Shown piece by piece: positions 1 to 7,590 of a stretch of 7,590 nt of DNA; within the stretch, counting starts at the first letter, position 1; each line of letters begins with the position of its first letter. The notes below the pieces were generated by a model. That model saw only the letters and a program-made list of their open reading frames with translations, was not told where the DNA came from and ran no database searches. The stretch is taken from IMG/VR virus record IMGVR_UViG_2734482594_000001. One strand, given 5' to 3'. This DNA is from a virus (lineage: Duplodnaviria; Heunggongvirae; Uroviricota; Caudoviricetes). The position numbers were made by a program, and so were the translations under genes.

Positions 1-1569
1 CCGGACGGCATGACATCGCTGCGTGAATATGCCGGTTATCACGGCGGTGGCAGCGGATTTGGTGGGCAGTTGCGGGCGTGGAACCCACCGGGTGAAAGTG
101 TGGATGCAGCCCTGCTGCCCAACTTTACCCGTGGCAATGCCCGCGCAGACGATCTGGTACGCAATAACGGCTATGCCGCCAACGCCATCCAGTTGCATCA
201 GGATCATATCGTCGGGTCTTTTTTCCGGCTCAGTCATCGCCCAAGCTGGCGCTATCTGGGCATCGGGGAGGAAGAAGCCCGTGCCTTTTCCCGCGAGGTT
301 GAAGCGGCATGGAAAGAGTTTGCCGAGGATGACTGCTGCTGCATTGACGTTGAGCGAAAACGCACGTTTACCATGATGATTCGGGAAGGTGTGGCCATGC
401 ACGCCTTTAACGGTGAACTGTTCGTTCAGGCCACCTGGGATACCAGTCCGTCGCGGCTTTTCCGGACACAGTTCCGGATGGTCAGCCCGAAGCGCATCAG
501 CAACCCGAACAATACCGGCGACAGCCGGAACTGCCGTGCCGGTGTGCAGATTAATGACAGCGGTGCGGCGCTGGGATATTACGTCAGCGAGGACGGCTAT
601 CCTGGCTGGATGCCGCAGAAATGGACATGGATACCCCGTGAGTTACCCGGCGGGCGCGCCTCGTTCATTCACGTTTTTGAACCCGTGGAGGACGGGCAGA
701 CCCGCGGTGCAAATGTGTTTTACAGCGTAATGGAGCAGATGAAGATGCTCGACACGCTGCAGAACACGCAGCTGCAGAGCGCCATTGTGAAGGCGATGTA
801 TGCCGCCACCATTGAAAGTGAGCTGGATACGCAGTCAGCGATGGATTTTATTCTGGGCGCGAACAGTAAGGAGCAGCGGGAAAGGCTGACGGGCTGGATT
901 GGTGAAATTGCCGCGTATTACGCCGCAGCACCGGTCCGTCTGGGAGGCGCAAAAGTGCCGCACCTGATGCCGGGGGACTCACTGAACCTGCAGACGGCTC
1001 AGGACACGGATAACGGCTACTCCGTGTTTGAGCAGTCACTGTTGCGGTATATCGCTGCCGGGCTGGGTGTCTCGTATGAGCAACTTTCCCGGAATTACGC
1101 CCAGATGAGCTACTCCACGGCACGGGCCAGTGCGAACGAGTCGTGGGCGTACTTTATGGGGCGGCGAAAATTCGTCGCATCCCGTCAGGCGAGCCAGATG
1201 TTTCTGTGCTGGCTGGAAGAGGCCATCGTTCGCCGCGTGGTGACGTTACCTTCAAAAGCGCGCTTCAGCTTTCAGGAAGCCCGCAGTGCCTGGGGGAACT
1301 GCGACTGGATAGGCTCCGGTCGTATGGCCATCGATGGTCTGAAAGAAGTTCAGGAAGCGGTGATGCTGATAGAAGCCGGACTGAGCACCTACGAGAAAGA
1401 GTGCGCGAAACGCGGTGACGACTATCAGGAAATTTTTGCCCAGCAGGTCCGTGAAACGATGGAGCGCCGCGCAGCTGGTCTTAAACCGCCCGCCTGGGCG
1501 GCTGCGGCATTTGAATCCGGGCTGCGACAATCAACAGAGGAGGAGAAGAGTGACAGCAGAGCTGCGTAA
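1..1569 (+). CDS. B: portal protein (lambda gpB-like), 5' end truncated by window edge
   Basis: Frame 1 is open from position 1 (ccg gac ggc atg...; first in-frame ATG at 10) to TAA at 1567-1569. Translation (LREYAGYHGGGSGFGG...NFTRGNARADDLVRNNGYAANAIQLHQDHIVGSFF...) is recognised from memory as phage lambda portal protein B. Position directly upstream of C/Nu3/D/E is as expected. No start or RBS is visible because the 5' end lies outside the window. Confidence 0.93.
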   Translation, partial: PDGMTSLREYAGYHGGGSGFGGQLRAWNPPGESVDAALLPNFTRGNARADDLVRNNGYAANAIQLHQDHIVGSFFRLSHRPSWRYLGIGEEEARAFSREVEAAWKEFAEDDCCCIDVERKRTFTMMIREGVAMHAFNGELFVQATWDTSPSRLFRTQFRMVSPKRISNPNNTGDSRNCRAGVQINDSGAALGYYVSEDGYPGWMPQKWTWIPRELPGGRASFIHVFEPVEDGQTRGANVFYSVMEQMKMLDTLQNTQLQSAIVKAMYAATIESELDTQSAMDFILGANSKEQRERLTGWIGEIAAYYAAAPVRLGGAKVPHLMPGDSLNLQTAQDTDNGYSVFEQSLLRYIAAGLGVSYEQLSRNYAQMSYSTARASANESWAYFMGRRKFVASRQASQMFLCWLEEAIVRRVVTLPSKARFSFQEARSAWGNCDWIGSGRMAIDGLKEVQEAVMLIEAGLSTYEKECAKRGDDYQEIFAQQVRETMERRAAGLKPPAWAAAAFESGLRQSTEEEKSDSRAA

Positions 1570-2869
1570 TCTCCCGCATATTGCCAGCATGGCTTTTAAT
1601 GAGCCGCTGATGCTTGAACCCGCCTATGCGCGGGTTTTCTTTTGTGCGCTTGCAGGCCAGCTTGGGATCAGCTGCCTGACGGATGCAGTATCCGGCGACA
1701 GCCTGACTGCCGGAGAGGCACCCGCGGCGCTGGCGTTATCCGGTGATGATGACGGACCACGACAGGCCCGCAGTTATCAGGTAATGAACGGCATCGCCGT
1801 GCTGCCGGTGTCCGGCACGCTGGTCAGCCGGACGCGGGCGCTGCAGCCGTACTCGGGGATGACCGGTTACAACGGCATTATCGCCCGTCTGCAACAGGCT
1901 GCCAGCGACCCGATGGTGGACGGCATTCTGCTCGATATGGACACACCGGGCGGAATGGTGGCGGGAGCATTTGACTGCGCTGACATCATCGCCCGTGTGC
2001 GTGACATAAAGCCGGTATGGGCGCTGGCCAATGACATGAACTGCAGCGCAGGTCAGCTGCTTGCCAGTGCCGCCTCCCGGCGTCTGGTCACGCAGACCGC
2101 CCGGACAGGCTCCATCGGCGTCATGATGGCTCACAGTAATTACGGCGCTGCGCTGGAGAAACAGGGCGTGGAAATCACGCTGATTTACAGCGGCAGCCAT
2201 AAGGTGGATGGCAACCCCTACAGCCATCTACCGGATGATGTCCGGGAAACATTGCAGTCCCGGATGGATGCAACCCGCCGGATGTTTGCACAGAAGGTGT
2301 CGGCATATACCGGCCTGTCCGTGCAGGCTGTGCTGGATACCGAGGCTGCAGTGTACAGCGGTCAGGAGGCCATTGATGCCGGACTGGCTGATGAACTTGT
2401 TAACAGTACCGATGCGATCACCGTCATGCGTGATGCACTGGATGCACGTAAATCCCGTCTCTCAGGAGGGCGAATGACCAAAGAGACTCAATCAACAACT
2501 GTTTCAGCCACTGCTTCGCAGGCTGACGTTACTGGCGTGGTGCAAGCGACGGAGGGCGAGAACGCCAGCGCGGCGCAGCCGGACGTGAACGCGCAGATCA
2601 CCGCAGCGGTTGCGGCAGAAAACAGTCGCATTATGGGGATCCTCAACTGTGAGGAGGCTCACGGACGCGAAGAACAGGCACGCGTGCTGGCCGAAACCCC
2701 CGGTATGACCGTGGAAACGGCCCGCCGTATTCTGGCCGCAGCACCACAGAGTGCACAGACGCGCAGTGACACTGCGCTGGATCGTCTGATGCAGGGGGCA
2801 CCGGCACCGCTGGCTGCAGGTAACCCGGCATCTGATGCCGTTAACGATTTGCTGAACACACCAGTGTAA
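1550..2869 (+). CDS. C: prohead protease / minor capsid protein C (lambda gpC-like, ClpP/S49-like serine protease fold by recall), 439 aa
   Basis: GTG at 1550-1552 is preceded by GAGGAGGAG (1537-1545) and the frame runs to TAA 2867-2869 (439 codons). Translation from VTAELRNLPHIASMAFNEPLMLEPAYARVFF... matches recalled lambda gpC. The start overlaps the 3' end of B by 20 nt in a different frame. The six-frame ORF (1415..2869) extends further upstream only because no stop intervenes. Alternative in-frame ATG at 1589 lacks an equivalent SD. Confidence 0.85.
   Translation: MTAELRNLPHIASMAFNEPLMLEPAYARVFFCALAGQLGISCLTDAVSGDSLTAGEAPAALALSGDDDGPRQARSYQVMNGIAVLPVSGTLVSRTRALQPYSGMTGYNGIIARLQQAASDPMVDGILLDMDTPGGMVAGAFDCADIIARVRDIKPVWALANDMNCSAGQLLASAASRRLVTQTARTGSIGVMMAHSNYGAALEKQGVEITLIYSGSHKVDGNPYSHLPDDVRETLQSRMDATRRMFAQKVSAYTGLSVQAVLDTEAAVYSGQEAIDAGLADELVNSTDAITVMRDALDARKSRLSGGRMTKETQSTTVSATASQADVTGVVQATEGENASAAQPDVNAQITAAVAAENSRIMGILNCEEAHGREEQARVLAETPGMTVETARRILAAAPQSAQTRSDTALDRLMQGAPAPLAAGNPASDAVNDLLNTPV
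2474..2869 (+). CDS. Nu3: scaffolding protein Nu3, nested in-frame within the 3' part of C (131 aa)
   Basis: Internal ATG at 2474-2476 in the C reading frame is preceded by a strong SD CAGGAGGG (2463-2470, 3 nt spacer). It shares the C stop at 2867-2869. Translation MTKETQSTTVSATASQADV... is an Ala/Gln/Glu-rich, low-complexity product consistent with recalled lambda gpNu3. An upstream in-frame ATG at 2264 (MDATRR...) is an alternative start but has no good SD. Confidence 0.7.
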   Translation: MTKETQSTTVSATASQADVTGVVQATEGENASAAQPDVNAQITAAVAAENSRIMGILNCEEAHGREEQARVLAETPGMTVETARRILAAAPQSAQTRSDTALDRLMQGAPAPLAAGNPASDAVNDLLNTPV

Positions 2870-3266: not shown

Positions 3267-4292
3267 ATGTCGATGTACACAACCGCCCAGCTGCTGGCGG
3301 CAAATGAGCAGAAATTTAAGTTTGATCCGCTGTTTCTGCGTCTCTTTTTCCGTGAGAGCTATCCCTTCACTACGGAGAAAGTCTATCTCTCACAAATTCC
3401 GGGACTGGTAAACATGGCGCTGTACGTTTCGCCGATTGTTTCCGGTGAGGTTATCCGTTCCCGTGGCGGCTCCACCTCTGAATTTACGCCGGGATATGTC
3501 AAACCCAAGCATGAGGTGAATCCGCAGATGACCCTGCGTCGCCTGCCGGATGAAGATCCGCAGAATCTGGCGGACCCGGCTTACCGCCGCCGTCGCATCA
3601 TCATGCAGAACATGCGTGACGAAGAGCTGGCCATTGCTCAGGTCGAAGAGATGCAGGCAGTTTCTGCCGTGCTCAAGGGCAAATACACCATGACCGGTGA
3701 AGCCTTCGATCCGGTTGAGGTGGATATGGGCCGCAGTGCGGCGAACAACATCACACAGTCCGGCGTCACGGAGTGGAGCAAGCGTGACAAGTCCACGTAT
3801 GACCCGACCGACGATATCGAAGCCTACGCGCTGAACGCCAGCGGTGTGGTGAATATCATCGTGTTTGACCCGAAAGGCTGGGCGCTGTTCCGTTCCTTCA
3901 AAGCCGTCAAGGAGAAGCTGGATACCCGTCGCGGCTCTCATTCCGAGCTGGAGACAGCGGTAAAAGACCTGGGCAAAGCGGTGTCCTATAAGGGAATGTA
4001 TGGCGATGTGGCCATCGTCGTGTATTCCGGACAGTACGTGGAAAACGGCGTCAAAAAGAACTTCCTGCCGGACAACACGATGGTGCTGGGGAACACTCAG
4101 GCTCGCGGTCTGCGCACCTATGGCTGCATTCAGGATGCGGACGCACAGCGCGAAGGCATTAACGCTTCTGCCCGTTACCCGAAAAACTGGGTGACCACCG
4201 GCGATCCGGCGCGTGAGTTCACCATGATTCAGTCAGCACCGCTGATGCTGCTGGCTGATCCTGATGAGTTCGTGTCCGTTCAACTGGCGTAA
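3267..4292 (+). CDS. E: major capsid protein E (lambda gpE-like, HK97-fold), 341 aa
   Basis: ATG at 3267 to TAA at 4290-4292. Translation MSMYTTAQLLAANEQKFKFDPLFLRLFFRESYPFTTEKVYL... matches recalled lambda gpE. The six-frame ORF starts at GTG 3240, which lies inside the upstream hairpin and has no RBS, so is unlikely. A second ATG at 3273 is a possible alternative start. Confidence 0.93.
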   Translation: MSMYTTAQLLAANEQKFKFDPLFLRLFFRESYPFTTEKVYLSQIPGLVNMALYVSPIVSGEVIRSRGGSTSEFTPGYVKPKHEVNPQMTLRRLPDEDPQNLADPAYRRRRIIMQNMRDEELAIAQVEEMQAVSAVLKGKYTMTGEAFDPVEVDMGRSAANNITQSGVTEWSKRDKSTYDPTDDIEAYALNASGVVNIIVFDPKGWALFRSFKAVKEKLDTRRGSHSELETAVKDLGKAVSYKGMYGDVAIVVYSGQYVENGVKKNFLPDNTMVLGNTQARGLRTYGCIQDADAQREGINASARYPKNWVTTGDPAREFTMIQSAPLMLLADPDEFVSVQLA

Positions 4293-4294
4293 TC

Positions 4295-4320
4295 ATGGCC
4301 CTTCGGGGCCATTTTCTCTC
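4295..4320 (+). promoter_or_regulatory. perfect 7-bp GC-rich stem with UUCG tetraloop plus U/C-rich tail in the E-FI spacer (possible RNA-stability or partial terminator element)
   Basis: Seen in sequence: ATGGCCC (4295-4301), TTCG (4302-4305), GGGCCAT (4306-4312) are exact reverse complements, followed by TTTCTCTC (4313-4320). It sits 3 nt after the E stop and ends 14 nt before the FI start. Confidence 0.5.
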
Positions 4321-4333
4321 TGTGGAGGAGTTC

Positions 4334-4585
4334 ATGACGAAAGATGAACTGATTGCCCGTCTTCAGGAGCTGGGTGAGCAATTGAACCGCGATGTCAGTT
4401 TGACGGGAACGAAAGAAGAACTGGCGCTTCGTGTGGCAGAGCTGGAAGAAGAGCTTGATGACACGGATGAAACTGCCGGTCAGGACACCCCTCTCAGCCG
4501 GGAAAATGTGCTGACCGGGCATGAAAATGAGGTGGTATCAGCGCAGCCGGATACCGTGATTCAGGATACGGCTGAACTGGTCACG
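4334..4585 (+). CDS. FI: FI (lambda gpFI-like, DNA packaging / head assembly factor), N-terminal 84 codons only; 3' end lost in N-gap
   Basis: ATG at 4334 is preceded by GGAGG (4324-4328, 5 nt spacer). Translation MTKDELIARLQELGEQLNRDVSLTGTKEELALRVAELEEELDDTDETAGQDTPLSRENVLTGHENE... matches recalled lambda gpFI. The frame runs into the N-run at 4586. The ORF-track start at 4295 lies in the hairpin and lacks an RBS. Confidence 0.85.
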
Positions 4586-4666
4586 NNNNNNNNNNNNNNN
4601 NNNNNNNNNNNNNNNNNNNNNNNNNNNNNNNNNNNNNNNNNNNNNNNNNNNNNNNNNNNNNNNNNN
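4586..4666. other. run of 81 N (assembly gap or masked sequence) covering the FI 3' end, FI-FII junction and FII 5' end
   Basis: Seen in sequence: uninterrupted N from 4586 to 4666. By recall, the homologous lambda interval is about 240 nt, so the N-run length is probably not the true length. Confidence 0.95.
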
Positions 4667-4936
4667 ATGACATCCGGTGAGCAGTCAGGTGCGGTGATAC
4701 GTGGTGTTTTTGATGACCCTGAAAATATCAGCTATGCCGGACAGGGCGTGCGCGTTGAAGGCTCCAGCCCGTCCCTGTTTGTCCGGACTGATGAGGTGCG
4801 GCAGCTGCGGCGTGGAGACACGCTGACCATCGGTGAGGAAAATTTCTGGGTAGATCGGGTTTCGCCGGATGATGGCGGAAGTTGTCATCTCTGGCTTGGA
4901 CGGGGCGTACCGCCTGCCGTTAACCGTCGCCGCTGA
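4667..4936 (+). CDS. FII: FII (lambda gpFII-like head-tail joining protein), C-terminal ~89 codons; 5' end lost in N-gap
   Basis: Frame open from the gap edge to TGA at 4934-4936. Translation ...TSGEQSGAVIRGVFDDPENISYAGQGVRVEGSSPSLFVRTDEVRQLRRGDTLTIGEENFWVDRVSPDDGGSCHLWLGRGVPPAVNRRR matches the recalled C-terminus of lambda gpFII. The true start is upstream within the Ns; the ATG at 4667 is probably internal. Confidence 0.85.
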   Translation: MTSGEQSGAVIRGVFDDPENISYAGQGVRVEGSSPSLFVRTDEVRQLRRGDTLTIGEENFWVDRVSPDDGGSCHLWLGRGVPPAVNRRR

Positions 4937-4947
4937 AAGGGGGATGT

Positions 4948-5526
4948 ATGGCCATAAAAGGTCTTGAGCAGGCCGTTGAAAACCTCAGCCGTATCAGCAA
5001 AACGGCGGTGCCCGGTGCCGCCGCAATGGCCATTAACCGCGTTGCTTCATCCGCGATATCGCAGTCTGCGTCACAGGTTGCCCGTGAGACAAAGGTACGC
5101 CGGAAACTGGTAAAGGAAAGGGCCAGGCTGAAAAGGGCCACGGTCAAAAATCCGCAGGCCAGAATCAAAGTTAACCGGGGGGATTTGCCCGTAATCAAGC
5201 TGGGTAATGCGCGGGTTGTCCTGTCCCGCCGCAGGCGTCATAAAAAGGGGCAGCGTTCATCCCTGAAAGGTGGCGGCAGCGTGCTTGTGGTGGGTAACCG
5301 TCGTATTCCCGGCGCGTTTATTCAGCAACTGAAAAACGGCCGGTGGCATGTTATGCAGCGTGTGGCCGGGAAAAACCGTTACCCCATTGATGTGGTGAAA
5401 ATCCCGATGGCGGTGCCGCTTACCACGGCGTTTAAACAGAATATTGAACGGATACGGCGTGAACGTCTTCCGAAAGAGCTGGGCTATGCGCTGCAGCATC
5501 AACTGAGGATGGTAATAAAGCGATGA
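4948..5526 (+). CDS. Z: tail completion protein Z (lambda gpZ-like), 192 aa
   Basis: ATG at 4948 is preceded by AGGGGG (4938-4943). Stop TGA at 5524-5526. Translation MAIKGLEQAVENLSRISKTAVPGAAAMAINRVASS... matches recalled lambda gpZ. Confidence 0.92.
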   Translation: MAIKGLEQAVENLSRISKTAVPGAAAMAINRVASSAISQSASQVARETKVRRKLVKERARLKRATVKNPQARIKVNRGDLPVIKLGNARVVLSRRRRHKKGQRSSLKGGGSVLVVGNRRIPGAFIQQLKNGRWHVMQRVAGKNRYPIDVVKIPMAVPLTTAFKQNIERIRRERLPKELGYALQHQLRMVIKR

Positions 5527-5918
5527 AACATACTGAACTCCGTGCAGCCGTACTGGATGCACTGGAGAAGCATGACACCGGGGCGACGCTTTTTGATGGT
5601 CGCCCCGCTGTTTTTGATGAGGAAGATTTTCCGGCAATTGCCGTTTATCTCACCGGCGCTGAATACACGGGCGAAGAGCTGGACAGCGATACCTGGCAGG
5701 CGGAGCTGCATATTGAAGTTTTCCTGCCTGCTCAGGTGCCGGATTCAGAGCTGGATGCGTGGATGGAGTCCCGGATTTATCCGGTGATGAGTGATATCCC
5801 GGCACTGTCAGATTTGATCACCAGTATGGTGGCCAGCGGCTATGACTACCGGCGCGACGATGATGCGGGCCTGTGGAGTTCAGCCGATCTGACTTATGTC
5901 ATTATCTATGAAATGTGA
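5523..5918 (+). CDS. U: tail terminator protein U (lambda gpU-like), 131 aa
   Basis: ATG at 5523-5525 overlaps the Z stop (ATGA, 5523-5526), suggesting translational coupling. Stop TGA at 5916-5918. Translation [54 protein letters not shown]... matches recalled lambda gpU. Confidence 0.92.
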
Positions 5919-5925
5919 GGACGCT

Positions 5926-6745
5926 ATGCCTGTACCAAATCCTGTAATGCCGGTGAAAGGTGCCGGGACCACCCTGTGGGTTTATAAGGGNNNNNNNNNN
6001 NNNNNNNNNNNNNNNNNNNNNNNNNNNNNNNNNNNNNNNNNNNNNNNNNNNNNNNNNNNNNNNNNNNNNNNNNNNNNNNNNNNNNNNNNNNCCGCTTTCA
6101 GACGTTGACTGGTCGCGTCTGGCAAAAGTTAAAGACCTGACGCCCGGCGAACTGACCGCTGAGTCCTATGACGACAGCTATCTCGATGATGAAGATGCAG
6201 ACTGGACTGCGACCGGGCAGGGGCAGAAATCTGCCGGAGATACCAGCTTCACGCTGGCGTGGATGCCCGGAGAGCAGGGGCAGCAGGCGCTGCTGGCGTG
6301 GTTTAATGAAGGTGATACCCGTGCCTATAAAATCCGCTTCCCGAACGGCACGGTCGATGTGTTCCGTGGCTGGGTCAGCAGTATCGGTAAGGCGGTGACG
6401 GCGAAGGAGGTGATTACCCGCACGGTGAAGGTCACCAATGTGGGACGTCCGTCGATGGCAGAAGATCGCAGCACGGTGACGGCGACGACCGGCATGACGG
6501 TGACACCCGCCAGTGCTTCCGTAGTGAAAGGGCAGAGCACCACGCTGACCGTGGCATTCCAGCCGGATGGCGCAACCGACAAGAGCTTCCGTGCGGTGTC
6601 TGCGGATAAAACAAAAGCCACCGTGTCGGTCAGTGGTATGACCATCACCGTGAAAGGTGTTGCTGCAGGCAAGGTCAACATTCCGGTCGTATCTGGTAAT
6701 GGTGAGTTTGCTGCGGTTGCAGAAATCAACGTCACCGCCAGTTAA
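5926..6745 (+). CDS. V: major tail tube protein V (lambda gpV-like) with C-terminal Ig-like (Big_2-type) domain; interrupted by N-gap, apparent frame change across the gap
   Basis: ATG at 5926 is preceded by GAGGA (5917-5921). N-terminal part [22 protein letters not shown] runs in frame 1 up to the gap. After the gap the frame-2 segment [28 protein letters not shown]...[16 protein letters not shown] runs to TAA at 6743-6745. Both parts match recalled lambda gpV. The ORF track splits it into 5896..6108 and 5960..6745 because of the Ns. Confidence 0.88.
5991..6091. other. run of 101 N (assembly gap or masked sequence) inside the 5' region of V
   Basis: Seen in sequence: uninterrupted N from 5991 to 6091. 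The flanking V segments are in different frames (1, then 2). By recall, lambda has only about 22 nt (about 7 codons) between the flanking residues. Confidence 0.95.
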
Positions 6746-6760
6746 TCCGGAGAGTCAGCG

Positions 6761-7183
6761 ATGTTCCTGAAAACCGAATCATTTGAACATAACGGTGTGA
6801 CCGTCACGCTTTCTGAACTGTCAGCCCTGCAGCGTATTGAGCATCTCGACCTGATGAAACGGCAGGCAGAACAGGCGGAGTCAGACAGCAACCGGAAGTT
6901 TACTGTGGAAGACGCCATCAGAACCGGCGCTTTTGTGGTTGCGATGTCCCTGTGGCATAACCATCCGAAGAAGACGCAGATGCCGTCCATGAATGAAGCC
7001 GTTAAACAGATTGAGCAGGAAGTGCTTACCACCTGGCCCACAGAGGCAATTTCTCATGCTGAAAACGTGGTGTACCGGCTGTCCGGTATGTATGAGTTTG
7101 TGGTGAATGATGCTCCTGAACAGGCAGAGGACGCCGGGCCTGCAGAGCCTGTTTCTGCGGGAAAGTGTTCGACGGTGAGCTGA
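6761..7183 (+). CDS. G: tail assembly chaperone G (lambda gpG-like), 140 aa
   Basis: ATG at 6761 is preceded by GGAGAG (6748-6753). Stop TGA at 7181-7183. Translation MFLKTESFEHNGVTVTLSELSALQRIEHLDLMKRQAEQAESD... matches recalled lambda gpG. The acidic C-terminal region contains the slippery heptamer. Confidence 0.92.
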   Translation: MFLKTESFEHNGVTVTLSELSALQRIEHLDLMKRQAEQAESDSNRKFTVEDAIRTGAFVVAMSLWHNHPKKTQMPSMNEAVKQIEQEVLTTWPTEAISHAENVVYRLSGMYEFVVNDAPEQAEDAGPAEPVSAGKCSTVS

Positions 7184-7590
7184 GTTTTGCCCTGAAACTG
7201 GCGCGTGAGATGGGGCGACCCGACTGGCGCGCCATGCTTGCCGGGATGTCATCCACGGAGTATGCCGACTGGCACCGCTTTTACAGTACCCATTATTTTC
7301 ATGATGTTCTGCTGGATATGCACTTTTCCGGGCTGACGTACACCGTGCTCAGCCTGTTTTTCAGCGATCCGGAGATGCATCCGCTGGATTTCAGTCTGCT
7401 GAACCGGCGCGAGGCTGACGAAGAGCCTGAAGATGATGTGCTGATGCAGAAAGCGGCAGGGCTTGCCGGAGGTGTCCGCTTTGGCCCGGACGGGAATGAA
7501 GTTATCCCCGCTTCCCCGGATGTGGCGGACATGACGGAGGATGACGTAATGCTGATGACAGTATCAGAAGGGATCGCAGGAGGAGTCCGG
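6761..7590 (+). CDS. GT: G-T fusion tail assembly chaperone produced by programmed -1 frameshift; T-domain runs off the 3' window edge (partial)
   Basis: The G frame reaches G GGA AAG at 7159-7165. Re-reading from 7165 in the -1 frame gives 142 sense codons to the window end with no stop and no start codon or RBS of its own (VFDGELSFALKLAREMGRPDWRAMLAGMSSTEYADWHRFYSTHYFHDVLLDMHFSGLTYTVLSLFFSDPEMHPLDFSLLNRREADEEPEDDVLMQKAAGLAGGVRFGPDGNEVIPASPDVADMTEDDVMLMTVSEGIAGGVR), which matches the recalled lambda gpGT T-domain. Confidence 0.85.
7159..7165 (+). promoter_or_regulatory. -1 programmed ribosomal frameshift slippery heptamer GGGAAAG (X XXY YYZ) for G to G-T
   Basis: Seen in sequence: in G frame G GGA AAG, located 6 codons before the G stop. 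The lambda G/GT frameshift at this heptamer is established knowledge. Confidence 0.85.
7577..7585 (+). promoter_or_regulatory. probable Shine-Dalgarno (CAGGAGGAG) for the next gene downstream (tape-measure gene H expected), start codon just beyond the window
   Basis: Seen in sequence: strong SD motif 5 nt from the window end, embedded in the T reading frame. In lambda, H begins a few nt before the T stop (recalled). The start codon itself is not visible here. Confidence 0.4.

What the first reader, a model, noticed from the sequence alone, without database searches (positions are those of the whole stretch)
7159..7590. Programmed -1 frameshift site GGGAAAG joining G to a long stop-free T frame
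The heptamer G GGA AAG sits 6 codons before the G stop. The -1 frame downstream is open for 142 codons to the window edge and has no start codon or RBS of its own, which is the signature of the conserved G/GT tail-chaperone recoding in long-tailed phages. It is the most functionally non-trivial signal in the window, though it is a known mechanism rather than a novel one.
Basis: partly seen in the sequence, partly recalled or inferred. Interest (0 to 1): 0.5.

Follow-up and report, generated by a model that had tools for sequence, protein, structure and literature searches.

The report
Phage lambda G/GT tail-chaperone frameshift site
This is the textbook programmed -1 ribosomal frameshift that makes the G and G-T tail-assembly chaperones of phage lambda, here in a copy about 98% identical to lambda; it is real, correctly read and already well known.

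Summary
GGGAAAG lies at 7159-7165 in X|XXY|YYZ phase of gene G (6761-7183), with five sense codons and TGA after it. The -1 frame is open from 7120 to the window edge: 157 codons in all, 142 counted from 7165. The window is collinear with phage lambda 2869-10540 at 97-98% identity. The slip site and the 60 nt after it are identical to lambda, where this exact heptamer is the published G/GT site (about 4% frameshifting; gpG:gpGT about 30:1). The zero frame matches phage_lambda_G and the -1 frame matches phage_lam_T, both above curated cut-offs. Thirteen divergent relatives, down to 31% T identity, all keep an in-phase shift-prone heptamer in the short overlap before the G stop, although the heptamer itself varies (GGGAAAG, GGAAAAG, AAAAAAG, CCCAAAA). 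One detail is wrong: the T frame does contain start-like codons (GTG 7165, ATG 7210), and old annotations start T at that GTG. That GTG has no properly spaced Shine-Dalgarno and is not conserved. A GC-rich stem 7 nt downstream is preserved in relatives, but it is not statistically unusual and is confounded by coding constraint. Verdict: already known, low interest.

The parts
5926..6745 (+). Major tail protein gene V, the upstream neighbour, interrupted by the N run at 5991-6091
   Evidence: Collinear with lambda V 8955-9695. The start 'MPVPNP' at 5926 and the stop at 6745 are visible.
6749..6752 (+). Shine-Dalgarno GGAG of gene G, 8 nt before the ATG
   Evidence: Read directly from the sequence. 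The 434 record annotates an RBS at the equivalent place.
6761..7183 (+). Gene G, the zero-frame product gpG (140 aa), a tail assembly chaperone
   Evidence: PF06894 E 5e-60. TIGR01674 phage_lambda_G equivalog 213.9 bits against a cut-off of 74.45. It differs from lambda G at 12 bases, of which 5 change an amino acid.
7120..7183 (+). Overlap zone where both the G frame and the -1 frame are open; the shift has to happen here
   Evidence: The last -1-frame stop is at 7117-7119 and the G stop is at 7181-7183.
7159..7165 (+). Slippery heptamer G GGA AAG, the site of tandem -1 tRNA slippage (Gly, Lys)
   Evidence: It is identical to lambda 10109-10115 and is named as lambda's G/GT slippery sequence in PMC3296357 and PMC7618472. 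It is present in all 80 IMG/VR relatives.
7165..7590 (+). T-domain coding sequence in the -1 frame (142 codons, cut by the window edge 9 nt before the expected stop). It is expressed only as the C-terminal part of gpGT: 6761..7165 joined to 7165..7590, with base 7165 read twice.
   Evidence: PF06223 E 1.9e-14. TIGR01715 phage_lam_T 180.6 bits against a cut-off of 77.35. It differs from lambda T at 2 bases, one synonymous and one D->E.
7173..7243 (+). Candidate 3' RNA structure (weak evidence): an outer helix 7173-7180/7236-7243 enclosing a GC-rich helix 7200-7214/7219-7233. It starts 7 nt after the heptamer.
   Evidence: MFE -40.6 kcal/mol, z -1.99. The helices are 94% and 96% paired in 6 relatives with one compensatory pair. 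However, 9-12% of 100-nt stretches in this window reach the same z.

Best explanation
This is the phage lambda G/GT programmed -1 ribosomal frameshift, in a lambda-like phage or E. coli prophage. Ribosomes start at the G ATG (6761). Most of them read G GGA AAG in the zero frame, end at TGA 7181-7183 and make gpG (140 aa). A small fraction, about 4% in lambda, slip one base backwards on the heptamer: the P-site tRNA-Gly re-pairs from GGA to GGG and the A-site tRNA-Lys (mnm5s2UUU) re-pairs from AAG to AAA. Those ribosomes continue in the -1 frame and make gpGT (279 aa in lambda; 277 aa are visible here). gpG and the G part of gpGT coat the tape-measure protein gpH. The T part recruits the major tail protein gpV, so that the tail tube polymerises around the tape measure. 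Neither protein ends up in the virion, and the fixed ratio set by the frameshift is required. Shown here: the site, its phase, both reading frames, the family membership of both halves, near-identity to lambda, and conservation of the arrangement in relatives. Taken from the literature: the slippage itself, its rate, and the roles of the two proteins.
For: The sequence is identical to lambda from 17 nt before the heptamer to at least 35 nt after it, and the whole window is collinear with lambda 2869-10540 at 97.3-98.3% identity with no indels outside the N runs. G and T hit PF06894 and PF06223 and the equivalog models TIGR01674 and TIGR01715, both well above cut-off on the conceptual fusion. 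PHROG 32165, a 290-position profile, is matched by G at positions 1-142 and by T at 140-284, so fused GT proteins are already a catalogued family. Records for 434, LLS and N15 annotate the joined CDS or the slippery site. In 13 relatives with T identity from 75% down to 31%, an in-phase shift-prone heptamer sits in the overlap: 5 codons before the G stop in ten of them and 1 codon before it in Gifsy-2, mEp460 and Vibrio HY01. The heptamers are GGGAAAG, GGAAAAG, AAAAAAG and CCCAAAA. The chance expectation for an in-phase XXXYYYZ in the overlap zone is 0.03-0.08. Literature: PMC5009743 (30:1 ratio, roles of gpG and gpGT, citing Levin 1993 and Xu 2004/2013/2014), PMC3296357 (GGGAAAG, zero frame kept about 96% of the time, dependence on tRNA-Lys thiolation) and PMC7618472.
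Against: Nothing in the sequence argues against it. Expression of this particular copy was not and cannot be tested here. The window ends 9 nt before the expected T stop, and the tape-measure gene H lies just outside it. Two N runs elsewhere in the window mean the intactness of FI/FII and V cannot be confirmed, so this copy could sit in a defective prophage.
Confidence: 0.96

Rival explanations
1. T is a separate gene translated from its own start codon (GTG 7165 or ATG 7210) and not through frameshifting, as the original lambda record and PGAP annotate it.
For: In-frame GTG at 7165 and ATG at 7210. J02459 lists 'T (tail component;144)' from the equivalent GTG, and RefSeq E. coli G5 lists 'phage tail assembly protein T' the same way.
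Against: There is no Shine-Dalgarno at a workable distance; the only purine-rich stretch, GGGAAA, lies directly against the GTG. The GTG is not conserved: the equivalent codon is GTC in PhiR12_1, GCA in CP-1639 and GCC in N15, LLS and phi80. The in-phase slippery heptamer is conserved in all of them. Published work reports T only as part of gpGT (Levin 1993, as cited in PMC5009743 and PMC3296357).
Confidence: 0.02
2. The frame change comes from transcriptional slippage by RNA polymerase on the A run, giving a subpopulation of mRNAs with one base added or lost, rather than from ribosomal slippage.
For: Some relatives have longer A runs at the same place (AAAAAAG in CP-1639, 1720a-02 and Stx1_8100), where some transcriptional slippage is conceivable.
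Against: This window has only three consecutive A's. From general knowledge, not tested here, productive transcriptional slippage usually needs about 6-9 identical bases. In lambda the frameshift rate responds to tRNA-Lys U34 modification, which points to the ribosome (PMC3296357).
Confidence: 0.01
3. G and T are one gene broken by a sequencing error or a recent indel (pseudogene), so the apparent frameshift is an artefact.
For: The window comes from an assembly with N runs, so it is not a finished sequence.
Against: The same two-frame arrangement, base for base, is found in lambda, 434 and HK630 and in 80 of 80 IMG/VR relatives. Similar DNA occurs in 4092 of 5426 complete E. coli genomes, and the arrangement persists in relatives with as little as 31% T identity.
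Confidence: 0.01

Closest known systems
Bacteriophage lambda G / G-T programmed -1 frameshift (Levin, Hendrix & Casjens 1993; lambda 9711-10549)
   Same: Same genes, same heptamer G GGA AAG, same phase, same five codons to the G stop and the same flanking sequence. G differs by 5 of 140 residues, and the visible T part by 1 of 142.
   Different: Only strain-level substitutions (14 bases in 830). This copy is slightly closer to phage 434 and PhiR70_1 (98.8-98.9%) and to E. coli prophages (99.3%) than to lambda itself.
Conserved tail-assembly-chaperone frameshift of long-tailed dsDNA phages (Xu, Hendrix & Duda 2004), for example N15 gp14/15, phi80, Gifsy-2 and TP901-1 gpG/gpGT
   Same: Two overlapping ORFs between the major tail protein gene and the tape-measure gene, with the second in the -1 frame and an in-phase slippery heptamer near the end of the first (PMC4493119).
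   Different: Those phages use other heptamers (GGAAAAG, AAAAAAG, CCCAAAA), and some place the site 1 codon rather than 5 codons before the stop. The window has the lambda-type version.
E. coli dnaX and IS-element -1 frameshift sites (A AAA AAG with an upstream SD-like element and a downstream hairpin)
   Same: Tandem slippage on a heptamer ending in A AAG, decoded by the single E. coli tRNA-Lys (PMC5009743).
   Different: Those sites reach high efficiency through defined 5' and 3' stimulators. For lambda G/GT the rate is low, and no stimulator is established by anything I could read. The candidate stem found here is unproven.

Membership tests
Lambda-type G/GT tail assembly chaperone frameshift | The upstream ORF encodes a gpG-family tail assembly chaperone | tested here: met
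   PF06894 E 5e-60. TIGR01674 equivalog 213.9 bits against a cut-off of 74.45.
Lambda-type G/GT tail assembly chaperone frameshift | The downstream ORF, in the -1 frame relative to G and overlapping its end, encodes a gpT-family domain | tested here: met
   G is in frame index 1 and T in frame index 0. The overlap is 7120-7183. PF06223 E 1.9e-14 and TIGR01715 180.6 bits against a cut-off of 77.35.
Lambda-type G/GT tail assembly chaperone frameshift | An in-phase X XXY YYZ slippery heptamer lies inside the overlap | tested here: met
   G GGA AAG at 7159-7165 is the only in-phase heptamer in G. The chance expectation is 0.03-0.08.
Lambda-type G/GT tail assembly chaperone frameshift | The gene pair lies between the major tail protein gene and the tape-measure gene | tested here: inconclusive
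   V lies immediately upstream (5926-6745). The H start would be at window 7592, two bases past the edge. H does follow directly in lambda, 434, HK630 and the 99.3%-identical E. coli G5 prophage.
Lambda-type G/GT tail assembly chaperone frameshift | The arrangement (frame, site position) is conserved in divergent relatives | tested here: met
   13 of 13 relatives down to 31% T identity and 80 of 80 close IMG/VR relatives.
Lambda-type G/GT tail assembly chaperone frameshift | T has no independent translation initiation | tested here: inconclusive
   Start-like codons exist (GTG 7165, ATG 7210), but they lack a properly spaced SD, and the GTG is not conserved in relatives. Proof needs an experiment.
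Lambda-type G/GT tail assembly chaperone frameshift | A gpGT fusion protein is actually made at a low fixed ratio to gpG (about 1:30) and is needed for tail assembly | not testable with these tools
   Established for lambda in the literature (PMC5009743, PMC3296357). It is inferred for this copy from sequence identity at and around the site.

The most novel reading that the evidence does not exclude
The GC-rich structure that begins 7 nt after the heptamer (7173-7180/7236-7243 enclosing 7200-7214/7219-7233) is a conserved 3' stimulator that helps set the few-percent frameshift rate of lambda-type G/GT sites. Nothing I could read describes such a stimulator. Relatives keep the helices 94-96% paired. 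Variation inside them mostly preserves pairing (G-C to G-U or A-U); a few cells break a pair. Several synonymous third positions inside them never vary.
Probability: 0.12. Interest if true: 0.3.

Novelty: already known. Interest (0 to 1): 0.08.

Why it matters
It matters only as a correct annotation. G and T should be annotated as G plus a joined G-T frameshift product, not as two independent genes. The old lambda record and current PGAP output still show T as a stand-alone CDS. The mechanism is a classic case of recoding that fixes the stoichiometry of two assembly chaperones. Finding it again in a near-identical lambda copy adds no new biology.

Tried and rejected
(1) I scanned IMG/VR with a T-domain alignment to get diverse loci for covariation. 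All 80 returned loci were about 99% identical to the window, so they served only to confirm that the heptamer is invariant. (2) I tested whether a downstream RNA structure stands out. Its z-score of -2.0 to -2.3 is matched by 9-12% of all 100-nt stretches in the same window. Most paired columns never vary and lie in the most conserved part of the T protein (ELxFALKLAREMGRPDWRAMLAGM), and there is a single compensatory event among effectively three lineages. I therefore reject it as evidence and keep it only as a low-probability possibility. (3) The PDB sequence search with the GT fusion gave no hit at E <= 0.01. (4) I tried to read Xu et al. 2013 (PMC3762263) for the rate and for data on stimulators, but it is not held. 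Levin 1993 is not held either, so I could not verify my recollection of what that paper says about downstream sequences and I do not rely on it. (5) The other GGGAAAG copies (878 on +, 1084-1090 on -) are not candidate sites: the one at 878 is out of phase in the portal gene, and the other is on the non-coding strand. (6) Structure prediction and the large protein searches were not run because the family assignment was already unambiguous.

Full report
**1. The observation**

Reading 6600-7590 and checking frames by script gives the following:
- An ORF runs 6761-7183 (140 aa) and is preceded by GGAG 8 nt upstream of its ATG.
- GGGAAAG lies at 7159-7165. Its first G is the third base of codon 133, so the phase is G|GGA|AAG.
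- After AAG come TGT TCG ACG GTG AGC TGA.
- The -1 frame has its last stop at 7117-7119 and stays open to the last base of the window.

The bare heptamer is not rare. It occurs 3 times in the window against 0.89 expected, and 12 of 200 shuffles reach 3. Its phase and place are what make it unusual. Only 3 in-phase XXXYYYZ heptamers occur in 2084 codon positions of the window's genes, so 0.03-0.08 are expected in the 20-codon zone where both frames are open.

One detail of the finding is inexact. The T frame does contain start-like codons: GTG at 7165, ATG at 7210 and others.

**2. What it is**

The stretch 6700-7590 is 98.2% identical to phage lambda J02459 9650-10540 and 98.8-98.9% identical to phage 434 and PhiR70_1. 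The whole window is collinear with lambda 2869-10540 at 97.3-98.3% identity, with no indels outside two N runs. The window therefore covers portal B (partial), C/Nu3, D, E, FI, FII, Z, U, V, G and nearly all of T.

In the G-T region there are 14 base differences from lambda. Twelve are in G, of which 5 change an amino acid. Two are in T, one synonymous and one D->E. None lies between 7142 and 7229, so the slip site and its surroundings are lambda's own. By the same collinearity, T would end at TGA 7597-7599, and the tape-measure gene H would start at 7592, both just past the window edge.

Family assignment is unambiguous:
- G matches PF06894 (E 5e-60) and T matches PF06223 (E 1.9e-14).
- On the conceptual fusion, TIGR01674 phage_lambda_G scores 213.9 bits against a cut-off of 74.45, and TIGR01715 phage_lam_T scores 180.6 bits against 77.35.
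- PHROG 32165, a 290-position profile, is matched by G over positions 1-142 and by T over 140-284, so the fused product is itself a catalogued family.

Similar DNA occurs in 4092 of 5426 complete E. coli genomes, with a best identity of 99.3% in prophages. This module is extremely common.

**3. Comparative support for recoding**

Curated records annotate exactly this:
- Phage 434 has a two-piece joined CDS noted as the 'GT tape measure protein chaperone frameshift product'.
- N15 has a 'slippery sequence for -1 translational frameshift' feature.
- LLS has a 'minus-one programmed translational frameshift site GGAAAAG' feature.
- Gifsy-2 describes a 'G+G' frameshift hybrid protein'.

I examined 13 relatives whose T domains are 75% down to 31% identical to the window's: PhiR12_1, CP-1639, 1720a-02, Stx1_8100, N15, HK225, LLS, phi80, Enterobacter MStein-2023a, Gifsy-2, mEp460 and Vibrio HY01, plus the lambda group. 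In every one:
- T is in the -1 frame relative to G.
- The two frames overlap only briefly.
- An in-phase shift-prone heptamer lies in that overlap. It sits 5 codons before the G stop in ten relatives, and 1 codon before it in Gifsy-2, mEp460 and Vibrio HY01.

The heptamer itself varies (GGGAAAG, GGAAAAG, AAAAAAG, CCCAAAA), and so does the sequence upstream of it. All 80 close IMG/VR relatives carry GGGAAAG.

The codon that old annotations use as the T start (GTG 7165) is GTC, GCA or GCC in relatives. That argues against independent initiation.

**4. Mechanism**

From the literature, this is what happens in lambda. Ribosomes translating G slip -1 on G GGA AAG, and both frames read Gly-Lys across the site. 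The zero frame is kept about 96% of the time (PMC3296357). The gpG:gpGT ratio of about 30:1 is critical for tail assembly (PMC5009743). [quoted passage not shown]

For this window, the sequence features are shown directly. That the same events occur here is an inference from near-identity.

**5. A possible 3' structure**

The 100 nt after the heptamer fold to -40.6 kcal/mol with a z-score of -1.99. An outer helix (7173-7180 with 7236-7243) starts 7 nt after the site and encloses a 13-bp GC-rich helix (7200-7214 with 7219-7233).

In six relatives these helices are 94% and 96% paired. Sliding the 3' partners by 1-3 columns drops pairing to 24-43%. There is one compensatory G-C/A-U pair and several G-C/G-U changes.

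The evidence is nevertheless weak, for four reasons:
- Most paired columns never vary.
- They lie in the most conserved part of the T protein.
- The six sequences represent about three lineages.
- 9-12% of all 100-nt stretches in this same window reach a z-score at least as negative.

I could not read the primary papers to see what is known about downstream effects. I treat this structure as a low-probability side possibility and not as a finding.

**6. Comparison, novelty and verdict**

This is the archetype of the conserved tail-assembly-chaperone frameshift, not a variant of it. Every defining feature that sequence can test is met. The exception is the tape-measure neighbour, which falls two bases outside the window but is present in all close relatives. 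Production of the protein cannot be tested here.

- Novelty: already known.
- Interest: low.
- Practical point: many records, including J02459 and current PGAP output, still list T as an independent CDS.

Noticed in passing
window 4586-4666 and 5991-6091: Two N runs (81 and 101 N) do not preserve length relative to lambda: they stand in for 242 nt (lambda 7454-7695, the end of FI and start of FII) and 22 nt (lambda 9020-9041, inside V). As a result, the ORF listing shows an apparent FI-FII fusion ORF (4295-4936) and puts the two halves of V in different frames. This is an assembly-gap or masking artefact, not biology.
   Followed up: yes
GenBank MW057783.1, 9630-10459 (hit H19): A record named 'Campylobacter phage CJLB-4' (48,361 bp, host Campylobacter jejuni) carries G/T 98.3% identical to this window, at almost the same coordinates as in lambda. 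It looks like lambda DNA under a Campylobacter label, which suggests contamination or mislabelling.
   Followed up: no
L002 7466-7900 (J02459), L009 10074-10508 (E. coli G5), L001 1966-2400 (HK630): Annotation is inconsistent. The original lambda record, PGAP/RefSeq and HK630 list T (or 'GT') as a stand-alone CDS starting at the GTG inside the heptamer. The 434 and LLS records give the correct joined frameshift CDS.
   Followed up: partly
window 219-225 (portal gene B) and 5244-5250 (gene Z): The only other in-phase XXXYYYZ heptamers in the window's genes are T TTT TTC in B and A AAG GGG in Z. I did not check whether the -1 frame is open after them or whether they are conserved.
   Followed up: no
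window 878-884 (+) and 1084-1090 (-): There are two more copies of GGGAAAG. The one at 878 starts at the second position of a portal-gene codon, so it is out of phase for tandem slippage. The other is on the non-coding strand.
   Followed up: yes
window about 4001-4100 and about 2151-2250: These are the 100-nt stretches with the most negative folding z-scores in the window: -4.3 near the end of capsid gene E and -3.7 inside C, just upstream of the Nu3 start. Both fold more strongly than the stretch after the slip site.
   Followed up: no
L096 680-790 (Vibrio phage HY01, MT366580.1): This distant relative (31% T identity) has an in-phase C CCA AAA one codon before the stop of its G-like ORF. 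About 36 nt downstream of the heptamer it has a strong 8-bp GC-rich hairpin (CUUGCCCG AGAG UUCGGGCAAG). The hairpin spans the homologous LAREFG codons, but the pairing differs from the one predicted in lambda. Both ORFs are annotated only as hypothetical proteins.
   Followed up: partly
window 1550-2869: The protease/scaffold pair C and Nu3 (Nu3 is an in-frame internal start within C, lambda 5132-5737, which corresponds to window 2264-2869) is present, as in lambda. This is another known case of two products from one frame.
   Followed up: no
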